Source: the human T2T-CHM13v2.0 reference genome, Homo sapiens. Taken from it: a stretch of DNA of 64,000 bases. The first letter of the stretch is position 1. Every line of letters starts with the position of its first letter. The stretch lies in NCBI RefSeq assembly GCF_009914755.1, contig NC_060930.1. One strand, written 5' to 3'. Below are positions 36,561 through 42,500 of this stretch, one piece after another. The notes below the pieces were generated by a model. It was not told where the DNA came from, did not search any database, and saw only the letters and a list, made by a program, of their open reading frames with translations. A program made the position numbers and the translations under genes.

Positions 36561-37421
36561 TGTCATTTTATTTAGTTCTTTGTTCAGCCTCAAATGCCTT
36601 AGCAGTGATTAGTCAACACTTTCATATGAGTTGTAGCATGCCACCATTTTAGTAAAAGGAGTGTTGGACAGAGATAAAGGAGACAAAATGTGGTTCTGAC
36701 TCTTGAATTAGGCGGTTATGTTATCCTGAGTAACCCATTGTCTCTGTAAAGCTCTCATATCCTACGTGTTACAAGAAATTACTGAAATAGCTTTTTAAAA
36801 AAATTTTCCATTCTGTTTAATGTATACATAAATGAGCTACTATAATTATTGCATGTTTATTTTATGTACTACCCCCTCATCTTAAACCAACTAATTCGTG
36901 TTTATGAGCTATGGATTCAATAGATAAAATGAAAGGATGCAGACTGTTTAATGAAATACAGCACATCATTACCAGCTACCACTAGAAAATGACTCATAAT
37001 TCATGTCCATGAAAGGGTGCTTTAGTAGCATTTTCATAAACAAATGGAAAATTGTTGAGTATTTGTTAGATATTCTAAAGAGTATGCTTTATCTGAATGT
37101 GAGTCTCAGAATTATCTAAGCCATTACTTGAGACTGTTACGTGAAAATATCAACAATTTCATTACATTCTGAAAAATTGGTTCTTAAGTGCTTTGAAGCA
37201 AAAATGATAACAGTCTGGAAGTTTGAAAGTATGAGTCTTTATTTCAGAAATAATGGAACATGAAAATAAACAGTACTCAATCTACCATAGAAATTATTGT
37301 ATACTTTTTGGGAAGCTTGAGGGACAAGGGAAAAGAAGGAATATATATTATTTTAACAAGTATTATCCCAGGAGTTGGGGAAATAGGTATTAGAGTAGTT
37401 CCATGAAAATTTTGTTCTGAT

Positions 37422-37807
37422 AAATTCCATTATCATGAGTTGTATATTTTTACATTCCTGATACCATGATTTTGAGAAGATGCAGTTTGTTGTAGTTGTT
37501 TTAAGGCAATTGGAGACGAACATAGTTGCAAGTATGGATTCAAAAACCACACACACACACACACACTCACACACACACACATTCATGCACATTTGTTTTC
37601 CATTTTATTAAAGAAAGTATACTTTTAAGAACAAGAACATAGAAAAAATGTAATTTCAAATTGATGCATGTATCTCTCAGTATAAAAATCTGCTGGATTC
37701 CCAAGTTGAAACAGCAAGTTCAGATAGCCAGAGAGAGTGTTTCCTTGAAATGATTCCATCACAATTTATCGACATGTTTTCAGCTCCAGAGATTGGATAG
37801 TGAGTGT
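37422..37807 (+). repeat. Source copy of ~385-bp segment duplicated at 38532-38930
   Basis: Aligned by eye at about 90% identity, including the (CA)n tract. Confidence 0.95.
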
Positions 37808-38519
37808 TTAGGTAGTAAAAGACATCTGGCATTTGGCTTTATGGAAAAGTTTGTACAGTGATTTTATTTTTCTTATTTTTACAAGAGTCCAATGAAACAT
37901 TATCACAATTAGCAAGCAGCTTATGATGGTTGAACTAGCAGACTGCAAGAAAAATATGTTTGATAAATTGCTGATGTAGATAAATCAATGGATTTTAAAA
38001 AGTAGGCTTACAATAAAACAAAATAAAATAAGACATGTAATTTTAGAAATTGAAGAAATATAAATATTTTAAAAGGTAAATTAATTGTTCATAATTTAAC
38101 AGAGCTCTGATTCTATGTTCAGCCCTTTTTAAAAATGTACCAGAGAGTCTTACTCTTTTAGGCCCATTACATTTATTCTTGTACATTAAAATATATAAGT
38201 ATAATCTGGAAAAATCCTGATTTTTAAATGATGGAAGATTTTCCTTCCTGTAAAATATAATTTTTACAAAACAGTGCACAAAATTTTCTGAGTAAATTAA
38301 AGCTCTCTTGATGCAGTCTGTACATTACCCACAGCTTGTTCTATCCAGTTGAGAAAAAGACAATTAAGAATATTAATAAATCATATTGAAATGTTGATGA
38401 ATTAAGAATGCAAATTGAAATTGGATTTAAACAATGTCTTCAGTAGTATAAGACAGAAATAACATGAATTAATCTTCTTTAATAATAGTATCCATCTTGT
38501 AATATTTCACTTTCTTATG

Positions 38520-38657
38520 TTAGGTTGGTGCAAACTTCCCTTATCATGAGTTGTATATTTTTACACTCCTAATATCATGATTTTGAGAAGATGCAGTTTG
38601 GTGTAGTTGTTTTAAAGCAATTGGAGACCAACATATTTGTAAGAATGGATTCAAAAA

Positions 38658-38694
<37 letters not shown>

Positions 38695-39171
38695 CACACA
38701 TTCATGCACATTTATGTTCTAAACATTTTATTAAAGAAAGTATACTTTTAAGAACAAGAACACAGAAAGAATGTAATTTCAAATTGATGTATGTATCTCT
38801 CAGTATACAAATCTGCTGGATACCCAAGTTAGAACAGCAAGGTCAGATAGCCAGAGAGAGTGTTTCCTTGAAATAATTTCATTACAATTTATCTACATGT
38901 CTTCAATTCTAGAGATTGGATAGTGTGTGTCTATCCAAACTCTGGAGCTGAAAGCATGTTGATAAATGTTGATTGTTCATTTCATATTATTTGATATTTT
39001 GCCAATTTAATATCTCATTTCATTTTTATTTTAACTCCTTAATGATACATCCCCCACATGTCACAAATTATTGTGTTTCTTTAATTTGCCATTTATAGAT
39101 TTTATACATTAAAATGCCATTTGACATTAAAAGTAATGGCAAAAACCATGGTTACTTTTCAACCAACCTAA
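38520..39171. mobile_element. MADE1 (Hsmar1-derived MITE) split by ~585 bp of flank-derived filler
   Basis: Left ttaggttggtgcaaa (38520-38534). Right tttgacattaaaagtaatggcaaaaaccatggttacttttcaaccaacctaa (39120-39171), followed by TA. Left flank is TG. Confidence 0.88.
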
Positions 39172-39358
39172 TAGTATTGGAGAAAAAAAATAAACACTTG
39201 GATTTAATTACACTGTCAATACTGCATACAGTTTCTCATAGAATGTTCTGAGAAGAAACTGAATAAGCAGTCACAAATAGAAAAGAAATAAAATTAATGT
39301 TGAAAGTTTAGAGAAACTAAGACATGTATATAAGCTTTCTAAATAGAAGAAAAAAGTG

Positions 39359-39505
39359 AAATTTTGTTTGTTTATTCAATATTATTTGACATTTTGCCAA
39401 TTTAATAATATCTCATTTCACTTATATTTAAATACCTTAGTGATACATCCTCCATGTCATAAATTATTGTATTTCTTTAATTTGCCAGTTACAGATTTTA
39501 TATAT
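39359..39505 (+). repeat. Source copy of ~145-bp segment duplicated at 38964-39109
   Basis: atattatttga.attttgccaatttaat...tgatacatcc...aaattattgt.tttctttaatttgcca is present in both places. Confidence 0.93.
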
Positions 39506-42500
39506 ACCTAAAAAATATCATGATCAATGTCTGAGATTAACACACATTATTTGTTTGAAAAATCAATAAGTAAAATATAAAGCCAAAGAACATGAGATAA
39601 GAAGTGTTTTATTAAGTTTTTTTTTACAAAGCCTGGAGATTTAATTCTGAAAGAAAATGAATACTGCAGTCTTGAAATCACGTGATTTTATAGGTTGATG
39701 TAGATGTCCCATTTAATGAAAAATGTTGTCCTTCAAGTGATTCCACTTATACTTCTGACTAGATTAAATTTCCCCCCTAGAAACCTAATGAAGATAATGT
39801 ATCTTTTTGCTTTCTTAATTCTTTCCTAACAAAACTTTTGTGAGGGGGAAGGAAATGAAGAGATAATCTTTTGACAACATACTAAAATGAAAGCATTATA
39901 AGATGGACAGGAAACATGAGTAAATTTATTGGTTAATTAAGTCTTTAGTTTCTCTTAATTGGCACAACCTAAAATTACTTATTGATAGCAAATGGTTCTA
40001 TGTTCTAAATAAATTTTATTTTTGGACACTGTGGAACAGTTAATAAATGTATCAAATATTCTACCTCGTGTTATTTTTGCTAGTTTACACAAAAACACAA
40101 TTATTTTGTTTGATTCTGTTTTTCATAAATATTTATGTATAATATCATTTTCCTTGTAAACAGGATTTTTCCTGCCCAAAGGGAGGAAAAACAATTTGTG
40201 TGTTAATTTTATCTCACTGGTTTTGTTCAGCTTCAGTAGTTGTGTATATAAAGGAAGAGATTAGATAAAGGGGAATACAAGCAACCCCTGTTGTGAACGT
40301 AAAGAATTTTAATTAGCCATGATGATAATTTTGAAGCATTTCAGGTATATTCCACCCCTCTGCTCATAGAACAGACCAGCTGCTAAATGGTTCCTGTCAG
40401 TAGTCCTTCAAAACTTATTTTGTTTAGATTTTGCTGCCCCCTACAGAATAACCAAAGGCATTCCTGAGTTTGCCATGTACCTTCAACTTCAAGATGAGAG
40501 CATTTCATGTCTTCTTGAGATTCTGGTAGAAATAACCCTCACATGGTAGTTTTTATTACTAAATTTGGCATATTTTGTATTACTTGTGACACAGCTGAAC
40601 CTCCCTCAAAATTAAAATAAAGAAATAAAAAGCATTCTTTCCAATAATTCCTCCCTTCTCTACACGAAAAGAAAAAGTAAAAATTTTTAAAGAGAAAAAC
40701 TAGTAATGTTTAAAATTTTCAAATAGTAACCTCATTGTAAAACTATAGAGCGTTTTGCCTTTTTTCCCATTTCATGAAAGACAATTTTATTGTTCTAAGT
40801 GCTTAACAGGCATAAATAGGCCATGGAACTGACAGGGGGAAAAAATCCTTCAATAAGATAGATAGATTATCTGGTTTACCTTCAAAAGTTCTAATCTATG
40901 TAAAAAAAAAAATGCATTCACTACTAATAAATATAAAATGGTTCTTTCTTTGAAAATCACATTATTGATTTATCAAACATCTTTTTTCTGGGTCTTCAAA
41001 TAAAAAAATGTGTATTTGTTTTTAAATAAACTCCTTGCTCATAGTAGAAAAATATAGGTTAAGTGCAAAAATTTAGGTAAACCTGAAAGTGGCAATTCAG
41101 TGTGTTCTATTTCCCCAATAAATTGTTTCCTAAAAATGTGCAACACATGTAATTACTTTCACTTATTTTTTGTATTTTTATCAGCTGTTTCTCTTTGCTA
41201 GAATGGTGCTTATGAAGAAATAAGATACATCAATCATAAAAGGCGTTACTATTTCTAAATAAAAAATCGTCATCACCACTAAATAGTGACTAGTAATGGT
41301 GAGGCATTAACCCAACAGTCTTCTTTCAGGTCAAGCATGATCTTTAGCTAAGAGAATTTCATTCATTGCTACAGAGAACATTTTTAAATTTTTTAATGAA
41401 AATGAATGGTATATTTTAGTTGTAAACATTTATTATTTTCCTGTTTAAAAAAGTAATATTTAGAAAAAACAAAGTTTTCATGAAGATAGCTGAAATAATT
41501 TCCATTGCTAATTACATAAGGTAGCATACTCTATTTAAATATAAAGTCAGACTAATATGTGAAAGTGGCAAAAAAGTATAAGTATTAAAACAATCTGGAA
41601 CTTAATATGAGCAATTTGACTCAACATTTTTTAATCTCCCATCTAATAAATAAAATTGTTTATTTAAAGATAAATACATCCAATGTTCACCTAAATGGCA
41701 CTTTTGATCTCCAATATACATCAAAATTTTGAATGTTTATACCCTTACAAAACATCCTTTTAACTCCTAATATAGGGTTATCAGTGCTAAAAGCCTGTGA
41801 AGCAAATTACCACTATCTTAATTTTAAATGACATATCTTTAAAAAAAATTAAGAAACAGCATAGGAAATAAAGACTACCTAAGCTACACTAAAAAGGAAC
41901 ACATGATTTTTAAACTGAAATATTTTAGTTCTACATTCTTTGCATTTCCAAATATGTTTTATAATCAGCTTATCAATTTCTGCAACAAAAACAGAAAATA
42001 TGTCTTGGTAAAATTTTACATGATTGACATTATATGGTTTTGCCCTTCATAAAAGCATGAGTTTTATTTTCTTTATAAAATTACATATTTTTTCCCAAGA
42101 AAAATATTGTATAACAAAGCTATAAATTTGAGAAAATATATTCAATAATCAGATATTGTTTTTTATTTAATTGTAATCTCAGTATATATTATTAAGTGAA
42201 ATTAATTGTAATTCTTTAAAAATCAAATAGGAATCTTTTATCTAAATGAAAACAGATATTGTCTGAAAGTATATATTTAAAATACATTCATAATTTCAGT
42301 CAGGAATAATGAAATAAAATTGCAACACTGGAAATTGATTATTAACTACTTAGGTTCCTTCTTGGAAATTTCCGTAGTATATAAAATTCCGAGGTCTTTA
42401 TTCAGGACTTAGTATTAAACTTCCTGCAAGGGAACTATTTTATTTAGGTCTTGATGCTTCTGATATTCCTTATCACTGGATTCTGGTATGTATTCTGTCT

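What the first reader, a model, noticed from the sequence alone, without database searches (positions are those of the whole stretch)
37422..39505. MADE1 mariner MITE that captured DNA from both of its flanks ('Pack-MADE1'), with a fold-back inversion
Seen: the first 15 nt of the MADE1 terminal inverted repeat (TIR) (38520-38534) and the centre plus right TIR with TA (39120-39173) are separated by ~585 bp of filler in three parts. (a) 38532-38930 is a direct copy of upstream 37422-37807, with shared AAA at the junction. (b) 38931-38969 is the reverse complement of 37761-37800 and forms a hairpin with the end of part a. (c) 38964-39109 is a direct copy of downstream 39359-39505, with shared AAAT at the junction. 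About 13 nt of the left arm are missing, and ~10 nt (39110-39119) are unassigned. I counted ~11 differences in the first ~125 bp, so about 90% identity. Known: MADE1 is an 80-bp palindromic Hsmar1 derivative with TA TSDs, and abortive gap repair with template switching puts filler inside DNA transposons (P elements, Ac/Ds, Pack-MULEs). Inference: a break in the MADE1, made by transposase or at the hairpin, was healed by serial microhomology-primed copying of the left flank, its own opposite strand and the right flank, early in primate evolution. I do not recall such two-sided flank capture being described for human mariner MITEs.
Basis: partly seen in the sequence, partly recalled or inferred. 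Interest (0 to 1): 0.8.

Follow-up and report, generated by a model that had tools for sequence, protein, structure and literature searches.

The report
Broken MADE1 transposon patched with neighbouring DNA
An old 80-bp mariner-type mini-transposon (MADE1) was broken and patched with about 585 bp copied from DNA on both sides of it, which is a clear but ordinary example of a repair scar already catalogued in primate genomes.

Summary
A MADE1 element is split into its first 15 nt (38520-38534) and its positions 29-80 (39120-39171, followed by TA).

The ~585 bp between the two pieces has four parts:
- a direct copy of 37422-37810, which lies 0.7-1.1 kb upstream;
- a 40-54 nt inverted copy of the end of that same donor, forming a hairpin;
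- a direct copy of 39359-39505, which lies 0.2 kb downstream;
- about 10 nt that I could not assign.

The joints show 3-5 nt of microhomology. Copies differ from donors at 58 of 587 aligned sites (9.9%). The composite occurs once in the genome.

The claim that this is undescribed does not hold. Pace et al. 2009 catalogued 824 proximal "repair-mediated duplications" in human transposons, 3 of them in MADE1. Tan et al. 2021 described animal "Pack-TIRs" made by gap filling, including Pack-MADE1 rows. This locus is in neither table as far as I could see.

I also found three other MADE1 copies with fillers copied from unique nearby DNA. MADE1 carries 19-79 bp internal expansions about 15 times more often than a same-length Alu segment.

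Verdict: real, a new member of a known kind, of modest interest. What made the break (transposase, hairpin or chance) remains open.

The parts
37422..37810 (+). Upstream donor A. It is unique DNA containing a (CA)n microsatellite and was the template for the first filler segment. Its end lies 709 bp before the MADE1.
   Evidence: 33/389 mismatches to the copy; the only other genomic match of the copy.
37746..37800 (-). The end of donor A, which was also copied in inverted orientation (secure core 37758-37800).
   Evidence: I1: 43-nt arms, 88%. (55 columns, 85.5%). (7/54 mismatches).
38518..38519 (.). Left target-site dinucleotide. It now reads TG where TA is expected.
   Evidence: direct reading.
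38520..38534 (+). MADE1 left terminus, consensus positions 1-15. The last AAA is shared with the start of donor A (3-nt microhomology).
   Evidence: 15/15. (only one exact hit in the window). (the longer 21-mer end has 2075 exact genomic matches and 0 in the reversed control).
38533..38933 (+). Filler segment A', a direct copy of donor A.
38931..38973 (+). Filler segment 2, an inverted (snap-back) copy of the end of A. With the end of A' it forms a ~35-bp stem around a 7-nt loop. It may extend to 38984.
   Evidence: (-19.7 kcal/mol, z -5.8).
38964..39109 (+). Filler segment C', a direct copy of downstream donor C. Its first ~21 nt are ambiguous between the two donors.
   Evidence: 18/144 mismatches.
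39110..39119 (+). About 10 nt with no clear template. It could be a degraded continuation of C' or a short slip on the MADE1 motif next to it.
   Evidence: direct reading. No match.
39120..39171 (+). MADE1 centre and right arm, consensus positions 29-80.
   Evidence: 44/52. (5'-truncated Rfam mir-548 match, 16 bits, E 0.57, far below the gathering score of 90). (this stretch hits many MADE1 copies genome-wide).
39172..39173 (.). Right TA target-site dinucleotide.
39359..39505 (+). Downstream donor C, unique DNA starting 185 bp after the MADE1.
   Evidence: (the only other genomic match of C').

Best explanation
An 80-bp MADE1 (a Hsmar1-derived palindromic MITE) inserted at a TA in this gene desert and was later broken in its left arm, between consensus positions 15 and 29, with 13 nt lost.

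The gap was filled in one repair episode by synthesis-dependent copying of nearby duplex DNA with template switches. The left 3' end primed on AAA at 37422 and copied about 389 nt of upstream DNA. It then switched to the opposite strand and copied about 40-54 nt backwards, which is the snap-back. The downstream segment (146 nt of 39359-39505) was copied either by the same growing strand or by the right-hand 3' end. The strands joined at an AAAT(T) microhomology lying within a ~21-nt patch of imperfect similarity. About 10 nt of untemplated or unassignable filler remain next to the right MADE1 piece.

The product is a single-copy, immobile scar. It is a chimeric 'repair-mediated duplication' in the sense of Pace et al. 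2009, and equally a single-copy 'Pack-TIR by gap filling' in the sense of Tan et al. 2021.

Shown: the anatomy, the joints, the single-copy status and the approximate age. Inferred: that it was a single episode, the order of the switches, and the initiating lesion. My odds for the lesion are about 0.6 for a structure-induced or random break or stalled fork at the palindrome, and about 0.25-0.3 for Hsmar1 excision followed by abortive re-synthesis.
For: - Anatomy: three contiguous segments, each with exactly one other copy, lie inside one MADE1 whose two pieces are in the correct inverted orientation.
- Single copy: a genome-wide search with 38500-39200 finds only the two local donors, plus microsatellite and MADE1 hits (40 of 258 candidates scored, and long matches would rank first).
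- One age: the segments' divergences are compatible with a single date (8.5%, 13.0%, 12.5%; Fisher p = 0.18 for A versus C and 0.14 for A versus C plus the inverted piece). In the 43-nt stretch present three times, A' and the inverted copy share no derived change (my reading).
- Published signatures are met. Pace et al. report 824 proximal events with mean 162 bp and maximum 619 bp, 20 chimeric acceptors (5 with a second donor within 3.5 kb of the first), microhomology of 2-9 nt, deletions of 1-15 nt and filler of 1-68 nt.
- Tan et al. find cis bias, microhomology and post-transposition origin for primate Pack-TIRs.
- Age: 9.9% sits in the range of the chr6 'All primates' rows of Pace Table S1 (median 10.8%, n = 24). 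It is above 9 of the 10 'HCOR' rows (human, chimpanzee, orangutan and rhesus only; median 5.5%).
- Recurrence: three other MADE1 copies carry fillers copied from unique DNA 0.3-1.3 kb away (L006; L044; L045).
Against: - No outgroup genome could be examined. The order 'MADE1 first, filler later' and the single-episode claim therefore rest on parsimony.
- The downstream copy and the inverted piece look somewhat more diverged than the upstream copy (12.5-13% against 8.5%). This is not significant, but it leaves room for two events.
- The ~10 nt at 39110-39119 and the 21-nt ambiguous joint cannot be assigned.
- The left target-site dinucleotide reads TG, not TA.
- This locus differs from most other filler-bearing MADE1 copies I examined. 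9 of 14 have the break at the palindrome centre with a 4-20 nt duplication of MADE1 sequence. Here the break is in the left arm with a 13-nt loss.
Confidence: 0.82

Rival explanations
1. Transposase-initiated abortive gap repair. Hsmar1 transposase excised the MADE1 and the gap was re-synthesised from the sister chromatid. The left strand left the template after 15 nt and the right strand after 52 nt, and both wandered onto flanking DNA before annealing.
For: - The estimated age, before the human-marmoset split by divergence, overlaps the period when Hsmar1 was active. That period is about 50 Myr ago per the PMC9062482 abstract, with DNA transposons inactive for the last ~37 Myr per Tan et al..
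- The left breakpoint is close to the terminus, and the missing stretch is 16% of the element against a published median of 4.6%. Tan et al. expect that direction for excision-based repair.
- Abortive gap repair with template switching is the accepted origin of filler in Ac/Ds, P and Tc1/mariner derivatives (PMC3814204, passages read, citing Rubin and Levy 1997).
- In 9 of 14 other filler-bearing MADE1 copies, MADE1 sequence is duplicated on both sides of the filler, as two converging syntheses would give.
Against: - The same signatures arise without a transposase. Pace et al. find such events in LINEs, SINEs and LTRs.
- One MADE1-hosted event is human-specific and one is absent from marmoset, both long after Hsmar1 went extinct.
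- Tan et al. date 22 of 33 human Pack-TIRs to the inactive period.
- Duplications flanking the insert are also produced when a strand returns behind its point of departure in replication-based switching.
- Nothing at this locus records an excision.
Confidence: 0.27
2. Replication-based template switching (FoSTeS/MMBIR type) at a fork stalled by the MADE1 hairpin, with no two-ended double-strand break.
For: - MADE1 is a near-perfect palindrome of two 37-bp arms and a 6-bp spacer (PMC1784062).
- Palindromes are described as fragile sites (PMC7999016, abstract seen in the listing).
- The switch to the opposite strand and the serial short-range jumps are typical of fork switching.
- MADE1 elements with exact 12-mer ends are expanded by 19-79 bp in 30 cases against 351 of normal length. 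The figures for an equally long Alu segment are 770 against 137,932, an odds ratio of 15 (p = 2e-24).
- In the 14 other filler-bearing MADE1 copies examined, the left arm ends at consensus 31-62 in 10 of 14 and the right arm starts at 30-45 in 13 of 14, that is, near the palindrome centre.
Against: - Sequence alone cannot separate this from break repair by strand annealing.
- At this locus the break is in the arm, not at the hairpin tip.
- The Alu control is on average younger than MADE1 and is a different sequence context, so part of the 15-fold excess may reflect age.
Confidence: 0.3
3. Two or more separate events, for example an older insertion of the downstream copy and a later one of the upstream copy with its snap-back.
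For: The divergences are 12.5% and 13.0% against 8.5%.
Against: - The difference is not significant (p = 0.14-0.18).
- The three segments abut with no MADE1 sequence between them, so a second break would have had to fall exactly at the earlier joint.
- Chimeric single-event acceptors are documented (20 of 1,136 candidate duplications in Pace et al.).
Confidence: 0.1
4. Chance resemblance or assembly artefact: the 15-nt 'left terminus' is not MADE1, and the duplications are unrelated to a transposon.
For: The left piece is only 15 nt long, and the left TA is not intact.
Against: - The exact 15-mer occurs once in the window. Its only near match is the partner end, in inverted orientation 652 bp away (chance expectation 0.30 at up to 2 mismatches).
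- The right piece matches consensus positions 29-80 at 44/52.
- The copies are about 10% diverged from their donors, so this is not an assembly duplication.
Confidence: 0.01

Closest known systems
[quoted passage not shown]
   Same: - The insert lies inside a transposon and has exactly one other genomic copy, less than 5 kb away.
- There is no poly-A tail.
- The breakpoints show microhomology, a small deletion and short filler.
- Chimeric acceptors with two donors exist in that catalogue.
- Its Table S1 lists MADE1 hosts. One of them (chrX, CNKSR2 intron, donor 1,215 bp upstream) is very probably my locus L006.
   Different: - This locus is not in Table S1. I read all chr6 rows of the '<5 kb' sheet and found none between 102.58 and 105.95 Mb in hg18. 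It is also not among the 6 MADE1 rows.
- A likely reason is that a 15-nt MADE1 fragment is not annotated by RepeatMasker. That is my inference.
- The total insert (~585 bp) is close to their maximum of 619 bp.
- It combines donors from both flanks with an inverted piece. Only 5 of their 20 chimeras had a second donor within 3.5 kb of the first.
Animal Pack-TIRs made by transposition-independent gap filling (Tan et al. 2021, Nat Commun, PMC8277862)
   Same: - Non-transposon DNA of 100-5000 bp lies between two pieces of one TIR element, each covering at least 10 bp of a terminus.
- It is single-copy, with the parent in cis and microhomology at the joints.
- Supplementary Data 1 has 7 rows with MADE1 as the host, including a gibbon case whose parent lies about 1.4 kb away.
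   Different: - This locus is not in their human list. The chr6 rows there are HSMAR2 at 158.2 Mb, Charlie1b at 27.85 Mb and MER33 at 105.39 Mb.
- Their pipeline targeted young cases with high identity to the parent, whereas this one is about 10% diverged.
- No gene fragment is captured here, since the window has no annotated gene.
Abortive gap repair with filler DNA in cut-and-paste transposons (Ac/Ds, P, Tc1/mariner; Rubin and Levy 1997, as cited in PMC3814204)
   Same: Terminal pieces of the element are kept and the interior is replaced by DNA copied from elsewhere through template switching at microhomologies.
   Different: That model requires excision by an active transposase and repair from a sister copy, and neither can be shown here. 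Rubin and Levy 1997 itself was not read; I saw only its citation in passages of PMC3814204.
Pack-MULEs of plants
   Same: Host DNA sits between the terminal inverted repeats of a DNA transposon.
   Different: Pack-MULEs are mobile and often multicopy and carry gene fragments. This element is single-copy, lacks a usable left transposase binding site, and carries intergenic DNA.
FoSTeS/MMBIR complex rearrangements
   Same: Serial short-range template switches, including a strand inversion, joined at microhomologies.
   Different: Those are usually described for much larger disease-associated rearrangements. The distinction from strand-annealing repair cannot be made from sequence. This comparison rests on the mention in PMC3814204 and on recall.

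Membership tests
MADE1 (Hsmar1-derived MITE) | Terminal sequence of the 37-bp inverted repeats at both ends, in inverted orientation. | tested here: met
   Left piece 15/15. Right piece 44/52 against consensus positions 29-80 built from 10 genomic copies. The two ends are the only matches to the 15-mer in the window and lie on opposite strands.
MADE1 (Hsmar1-derived MITE) | 80-bp near-perfect palindrome: two 37-bp arms plus a 6-bp spacer (PMC1784062). | tested here: not met
   The element is now split over 652 bp, positions 16-28 are missing, and no hairpin forms. Rfam mir-548 is not found in the 3-kb scan and gives only a truncated 16-bit match in the narrow scan. It is therefore a disrupted former member.
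MADE1 (Hsmar1-derived MITE) | TA target-site duplication. | tested here: inconclusive
   TA is present on the right (39172-39173), but the left flank reads TG (38518-38519).
Repair-mediated duplication (Pace et al. 2009) | An insertion of at least 50 bp interrupting a transposon whose two fragments are collinear within +/-30 consensus positions. | tested here: met
   The interior is 585 nt and the fragments end and start at consensus positions 15 and 29. Criteria read.
Repair-mediated duplication (Pace et al. 2009) | The inserted sequence is found at only one other place in the genome, within 5 kb but more than 50 bp away. | tested here: met
   each segment has one other match. The donors lie 709 bp upstream and 185 bp downstream of the element.
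Repair-mediated duplication (Pace et al. 2009) | No poly-A/T tail; microhomology, deletion and/or filler at the breakpoints. | tested here: met
   AAA and AAAT(T) microhomologies, a 13-nt deletion and about 10 nt of filler. The published ranges are 2-9, 1-15 and 1-68 nt.
Pack-TIR, single-copy gap-filling type (Tan et al. 2021) | 100-5000 bp of non-transposon sequence between two pieces of the same TIR element, each covering at least 10 bp of a terminus, with an identifiable parental copy. | tested here: met
   15 and 52 nt of the termini, 585 nt of interior and two local parents. Criteria from the passages read.
Mobile Pack-type element (Pack-MULE-like, multicopy Pack-TIR) | More than one genomic copy with different flanks, and intact transposase binding sites at both ends. 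| tested here: not met
   The composite is single-copy. The left end keeps 8 of the 19 nt of the recognition element (for the element; for the count).
Transposase-initiated abortive gap repair | The event happened while the transposase was active, at a site from which the element had been excised. | not testable with these tools
   No primate outgroup genomes are held. Divergence only places the event at or before the human-marmoset split.

The most novel reading that the evidence does not exclude
MADE1 palindromes are preferential break or fork-stall sites that seed local templated duplications in anthropoid genomes. On this reading the locus is an extreme, two-sided, three-segment example of a recurrent process that existing catalogues under-count, because they need both halves of the 80-bp element to be annotated.

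Support comes from three results:
- There is a 15-fold excess of 19-79 bp internal expansions over a same-length Alu segment.
- Three further MADE1 copies have unique local donors.
- Pace Table S1 has 3 proximal events in MADE1 where I expect 0.1-0.3. That expectation is my rough calculation from 824 events, ~7000 TIR-related sequences and 45% repeat content.
Probability: 0.5. Interest if true: 0.45.

Novelty: new member of a known kind. Interest (0 to 1): 0.3.

Why it matters
By itself the locus is a well-preserved fossil of error-prone repair. One scar shows a microhomology-primed invasion, a strand switch that left a hairpin, and a second donor from the other flank, so it would make a good textbook illustration.

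It changes no concept. Capture of proximal DNA at breaks inside primate transposons, including MADE1, is already published.

The wider point is that 80-bp palindromic MADE1 elements seem unusually prone to such events. If a proper age-matched control confirms this, thousands of MADE1/mir-548 loci would be natural fragile sites and a small source of local duplications.

Tried and rejected
**Rfam scans.** The scan of 37000-40000 at E up to 10 found no mir-548. It gave only weak, sub-threshold matches on the fold-back hairpin (MIR6425, MIR807) and on the (CA)n tract (mir-297, SCARNA7), which I treat as spurious. The narrow scan gave truncated mir-548 matches at 16 bits against a gathering score of 90. 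This shows sequence likeness to MADE1, not a microRNA precursor.

**Wide-gap scan.** I could therefore scan only one size class, 99-159 bp. Elements as large as this one (652 bp), or with diverged 12-mer ends like this one, were not surveyed.

**Position-ordered sample.** I took the first 30 exact matches of a 21-nt MADE1 end on contig C1. These are 28 distinct elements, which I classified:
- 13 are near full length.
- 2 are Hsmar1-like.
- 3 are interrupted by Alu-like DNA.
- 1 is a 34-bp internal-deletion remnant.
- 9 have only one end within 1.5 kb.

I self-compared 13 of these loci and none showed a unique local filler within +/-1.5 kb. The solo ends are a known category.

**Larger flanks.** The solo ends therefore could not be followed further.

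**Candidates not counted as verified:**
- L043: its donor is an interspersed repeat (40 matches scored of 302 candidates), so local origin is ambiguous.
- L040: its donor contains a second MADE1-like end, so it is too complex to score.
- L047: only 28 nt at E 1e-4.
- L041: only 15-21 nt matches to a nearby repeated motif.
- L041 and L049 share a filler, but their flanks are homologous over 3.1 kb at 84%. That is an old segmental duplication, not transposition of a filler-bearing MADE1.
- 7 of the 13 fetched expanded elements had no convincing local donor within +/-2.5 kb.
Full report
**What is there.**
The window is T2T chr6:104,408,001-104,472,000, and the feature lies at chr6:104,446,520-104,447,173.

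- 38533-38933 is a direct copy of 37422-37810.
- 38931-38973 (extendable to 38984) is the reverse complement of 37758-37800 (37746-37800).
- 38964-39109 is a direct copy of 39359-39505.

Nothing else in the 64 kb matches this stretch except (CA)n microsatellites.

Global alignments give 33/389, 7/54 and 18/144 mismatches, 58/587 = 9.9% overall (K2P 0.09-0.14). There are few gap events, the largest being in the (CA)n tract. The end of the upstream copy and the inverted piece form a ~35-bp stem with a 7-nt loop. It folds at -19.7 kcal/mol with z = -5.8, and 0 of 200 shuffles fold as well.

**The flanking pieces are MADE1.**
I collected MADE1 copies from the window's own genome, which the tools hold as G000. 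A 21-nt MADE1 end has 2,075 exact matches and 0 in the reversed control.

Against a consensus of 10 intact copies, 38520-38534 equals positions 1-15 (15/15). 39120-39171 aligns to positions 29-80 (44/52). Positions 16-28 are absent.

The 15-mer occurs once in the window. Its only near match, at 2 mismatches, is the partner end on the opposite strand (chance expectation 0.30). TA follows the right end, and the left flank reads TG.

Rfam's MADE1-derived mir-548 model matches the right piece only as a truncated 16-bit hit and is not found in the 3-kb scan. The locus is therefore a disrupted MADE1, not a microRNA hairpin.

**Joints.**
- *Left joint.* The MADE1 AAA (38532-38534) is also the start of donor A (37422-37424).
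- *Inversion.* The upstream copy runs to about 37808. Synthesis then resumes on the opposite strand at 37800, leaving the 7-nt loop.
- *Inverted piece to downstream copy.* This joint lies in an AAAT(T) microhomology. The next ~21 nt (38964-38984) align about equally well to both donors, roughly 76-77% by my column count. The switch may therefore have used a longer patch of imperfect similarity.
- *Right joint.* 39110-39119 has no clear template.

In the 43 nt that exist in three versions (donor, direct copy, inverted copy), the direct copy and the inverted copy share no derived difference (my reading). That fits a single episode.

**Single copy, made in place, immobile.**
A genome-wide search with 38500-39200 finds only the two local donors for the filler parts. 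All other hits are microsatellites or MADE1 copies. The donors lie 709 bp upstream and 185 bp downstream of the element, so the composite was built where it sits.

The left end keeps only 8 of the 19 nt of the Hsmar1/SETMAR recognition element described in PMC9062482. By my reading, the right-end site now differs from that element at 6 of 19 positions. 'Pack-MADE1' is acceptable only as a structural label.

**Age.**
Pace et al. give donor-acceptor divergences with phylogenetic presence in their Table S1. For the chr6 rows I read:
- 'All primates' events have a median of 10.8% (n = 24).
- 'HCOR' events (human, chimpanzee, orangutan and rhesus only) have a median of 5.5% (n = 10; 9 of 10 are below 7.2%).
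- 'HCO' events (human, chimpanzee and orangutan only) have a median of 4.4% (n = 6).

At 9.9%, this event most likely predates the human-marmoset split.

The MADE1 pieces differ from the consensus at 8 of 67 positions. The 10 intact copies show 6-14 differences in 78-80 positions. This places the event near the era of Hsmar1 activity, which was about 50 Myr ago (PMC9062482 abstract). DNA transposons have been inactive for the last ~37 Myr (Tan et al.). The resolution is too low to say whether the transposase was still present.

**It is a known kind of event.**
Two papers cover the class.

*Pace et al. 2009* (PMC2671141; abstract, sections 6-8, passages, and supplementary file 3 searched). They screened human transposons for inserts of at least 50 bp with one other genomic copy. 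Their findings include:
- 824 proximal (<5 kb) 'repair-mediated duplications', with mean 162 bp and maximum 619 bp.
- 20 chimeric acceptors, 5 of them with a second donor within 3.5 kb of the first.
- Breakpoints with microhomology of 2-9 nt, deletions of 1-15 nt, filler of 1-68 nt and target duplications of 4-21 nt.

They attribute these to synthesis-dependent strand annealing. Table S1 lists 6 MADE1 hosts, 3 of them proximal.

*Tan et al. 2021* (PMC8277862; abstract, section 8, passages, supplementary files 7 and 10 searched). They define animal 'Pack-TIRs' and conclude that single-copy ones arise by transposition-independent gap filling at breaks inside the element. Their Supplementary Data 1 has 7 MADE1 rows in primates.

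This locus meets the stated criteria of both classes (see the membership table) but appears in neither list. No chr6 row of the proximal sheet lies between hg18 102.58 and 105.95 Mb. The human Pack-TIR list has chr6 entries only at 27.85, 105.39 and 158.2 Mb. A 15-nt fragment would probably not be annotated as MADE1, which may explain the omission; that is my inference.

My literature searches for MADE1 or Hsmar1 with filler or gap repair found no paper describing this particular locus or a two-flank capture in MADE1.

**Recurrence in other MADE1 copies.**
*First sample.* Among the three MADE1 loci returned that I inspected, L004 is intact and L007 has an internal deletion. L006 (chrX) has a 74-nt interior, of which 55-62 nt copy unique DNA 1.26 kb upstream (89%). 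The joint shows an 8-nt near-microhomology, and 13 nt of MADE1 centre is duplicated on both sides. L006 is very probably the chrX CNKSR2-intron row of Pace Table S1.

*Size-class scan.* I then scanned for elements with exact 12-nt ends. 351 have normal length (64-94 bp) and 30 are 99-159 bp long.

Of the 30, I fetched the 13 whose displayed sequence looked foreign. This was my choice by eye, and the other 17 were not examined for donors.
- 5 of 13 have a local match of at least 28 nt at E <= 1e-4 within +/-2.5 kb.
- 1 has only weak matches.
- 7 have none.

Genome-wide checks of three donors gave these results:
- L044: 41-62 nt, inverted, donor 0.3 kb upstream. The donor is unique.
- L045: 56 nt, direct, donor 0.6 kb downstream, with a 7-nt microhomology. 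The donor is unique.
- L043: the donor is an interspersed repeat, so the case is ambiguous.

*Position-ordered sample.* A sample of 28 elements on contig C1 gave no case. Such fillers are therefore recurrent but uncommon.

**Is MADE1 special?**
I applied the same pattern method to an equally long, non-palindromic Alu segment, using two 12-mers 56 nt apart. It gave 137,932 normal and at most 770 expanded matches, or 0.56%. The 770 includes artefacts such as left-arm matches across deletions. For MADE1 the ratio is 30 to 351, or 8.5% (odds ratio 15, p = 2e-24).

Some caveats apply:
- About 4 of the 30 are nested or adjacent MADE1 copies, and 2 are microsatellite growths, by my reading.
- Alu copies with exact 12-mers are on average younger than MADE1.
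- Counts from this tool are lower bounds for large families.

Even so, MADE1 looks several-fold more prone to internal expansion.

Among the 14 other filler-bearing copies I aligned, 9 show a 4-20 nt duplication of MADE1 sequence around the interior and 5 show a loss of 3-53 nt. Most breaks lie near the palindrome centre. The window's element, broken at positions 15/29 with a 13-nt loss, belongs to the minority with an arm break.

**What made the break.**
*For a transposase-independent origin.* The same scars occur in all transposon classes. One MADE1-hosted event is human-specific and one is absent from marmoset. Tan et al. date most human Pack-TIRs to the period after transposon extinction. 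Palindromes are known fragile sites (PMC7999016, abstract only). The centre bias and the excess over Alu fit hairpin-induced breaks or fork stalls.

*For excision-linked abortive gap repair.* The age is compatible. The left breakpoint is near the terminus, and the missing fraction (16%) is larger than the published median (4.6%). The classical model is well established for other cut-and-paste elements (PMC3814204).

I put about 0.6 on a structure-induced or random break or stalled fork, and about 0.25-0.3 on excision-linked repair. Either way the healing mechanism is the same: templated synthesis with serial switches.

**Verdict.**
The feature is a new, unusually elaborate member of a published class, single-copy and without any sign of function. 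Interest is modest, at 0.3. The more general lead, that MADE1 palindromes are hot spots for local templated duplication, deserves an age-matched, genome-wide test.

Noticed in passing
L011, L013, L019, L020, L021, L028, L035, L036, L037 (contig C1 loci): 9 of 28 sampled MADE1/Hsmar1 ends have no partner end within 1.5 kb; the MADE1 sequence stops after 22-50 nt. PMC9062482 states that about two thirds of ~7000 Hsmar1 TIR-related sequences are single TIRs, so this is a known category. How they arose was not examined.
   Followed up: partly
L041 (C7:57458451-57458579) and L049 (C20:49896486-49896618): Two MADE1 copies carry the same ~31-39 nt foreign interior. Their flanks are homologous over 3.1 kb at 84% in inverted orientation. 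This is an old segmental duplication that contains a filler-bearing MADE1, not a transposed one.
   Followed up: yes
Places listed, e.g. C4:156224165, C5:28091746, C7:36627798, C7:72605358, C12:103023327, C14:40719724, C18:21880633: By eye on the listing, roughly a third of the 30 expanded MADE1 copies contain partial duplications of MADE1's own centre rather than foreign DNA. This suggests slippage or self-templated switching at the palindrome tip. It was judged from the listed sequences only.
   Followed up: no
L046 (C10:32988959-32989109): This element keeps only 14 and 13 nt of the MADE1 termini around a 124-nt interior made of ~40-nt tandem units. No donor lies within +/-2.5 kb. It resembles the window's element in retaining little more than the termini.
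   Followed up: partly
window 37545-37585 and 38656-38700: The (CA)n microsatellite inside the donor and inside its copy have drifted apart in length; the copy has 8 extra nt plus point changes. It is a natural pair for comparing microsatellite evolution from a common start.
   Followed up: no
L040 (C4:173208093-173208203): This MADE1 has an interior that is an inverted copy of DNA 30-67 bp upstream, followed by a copy of its own left flank-terminus junction. The upstream DNA itself ends in a MADE1-like terminus. The structure is complex and unresolved.
   Followed up: partly
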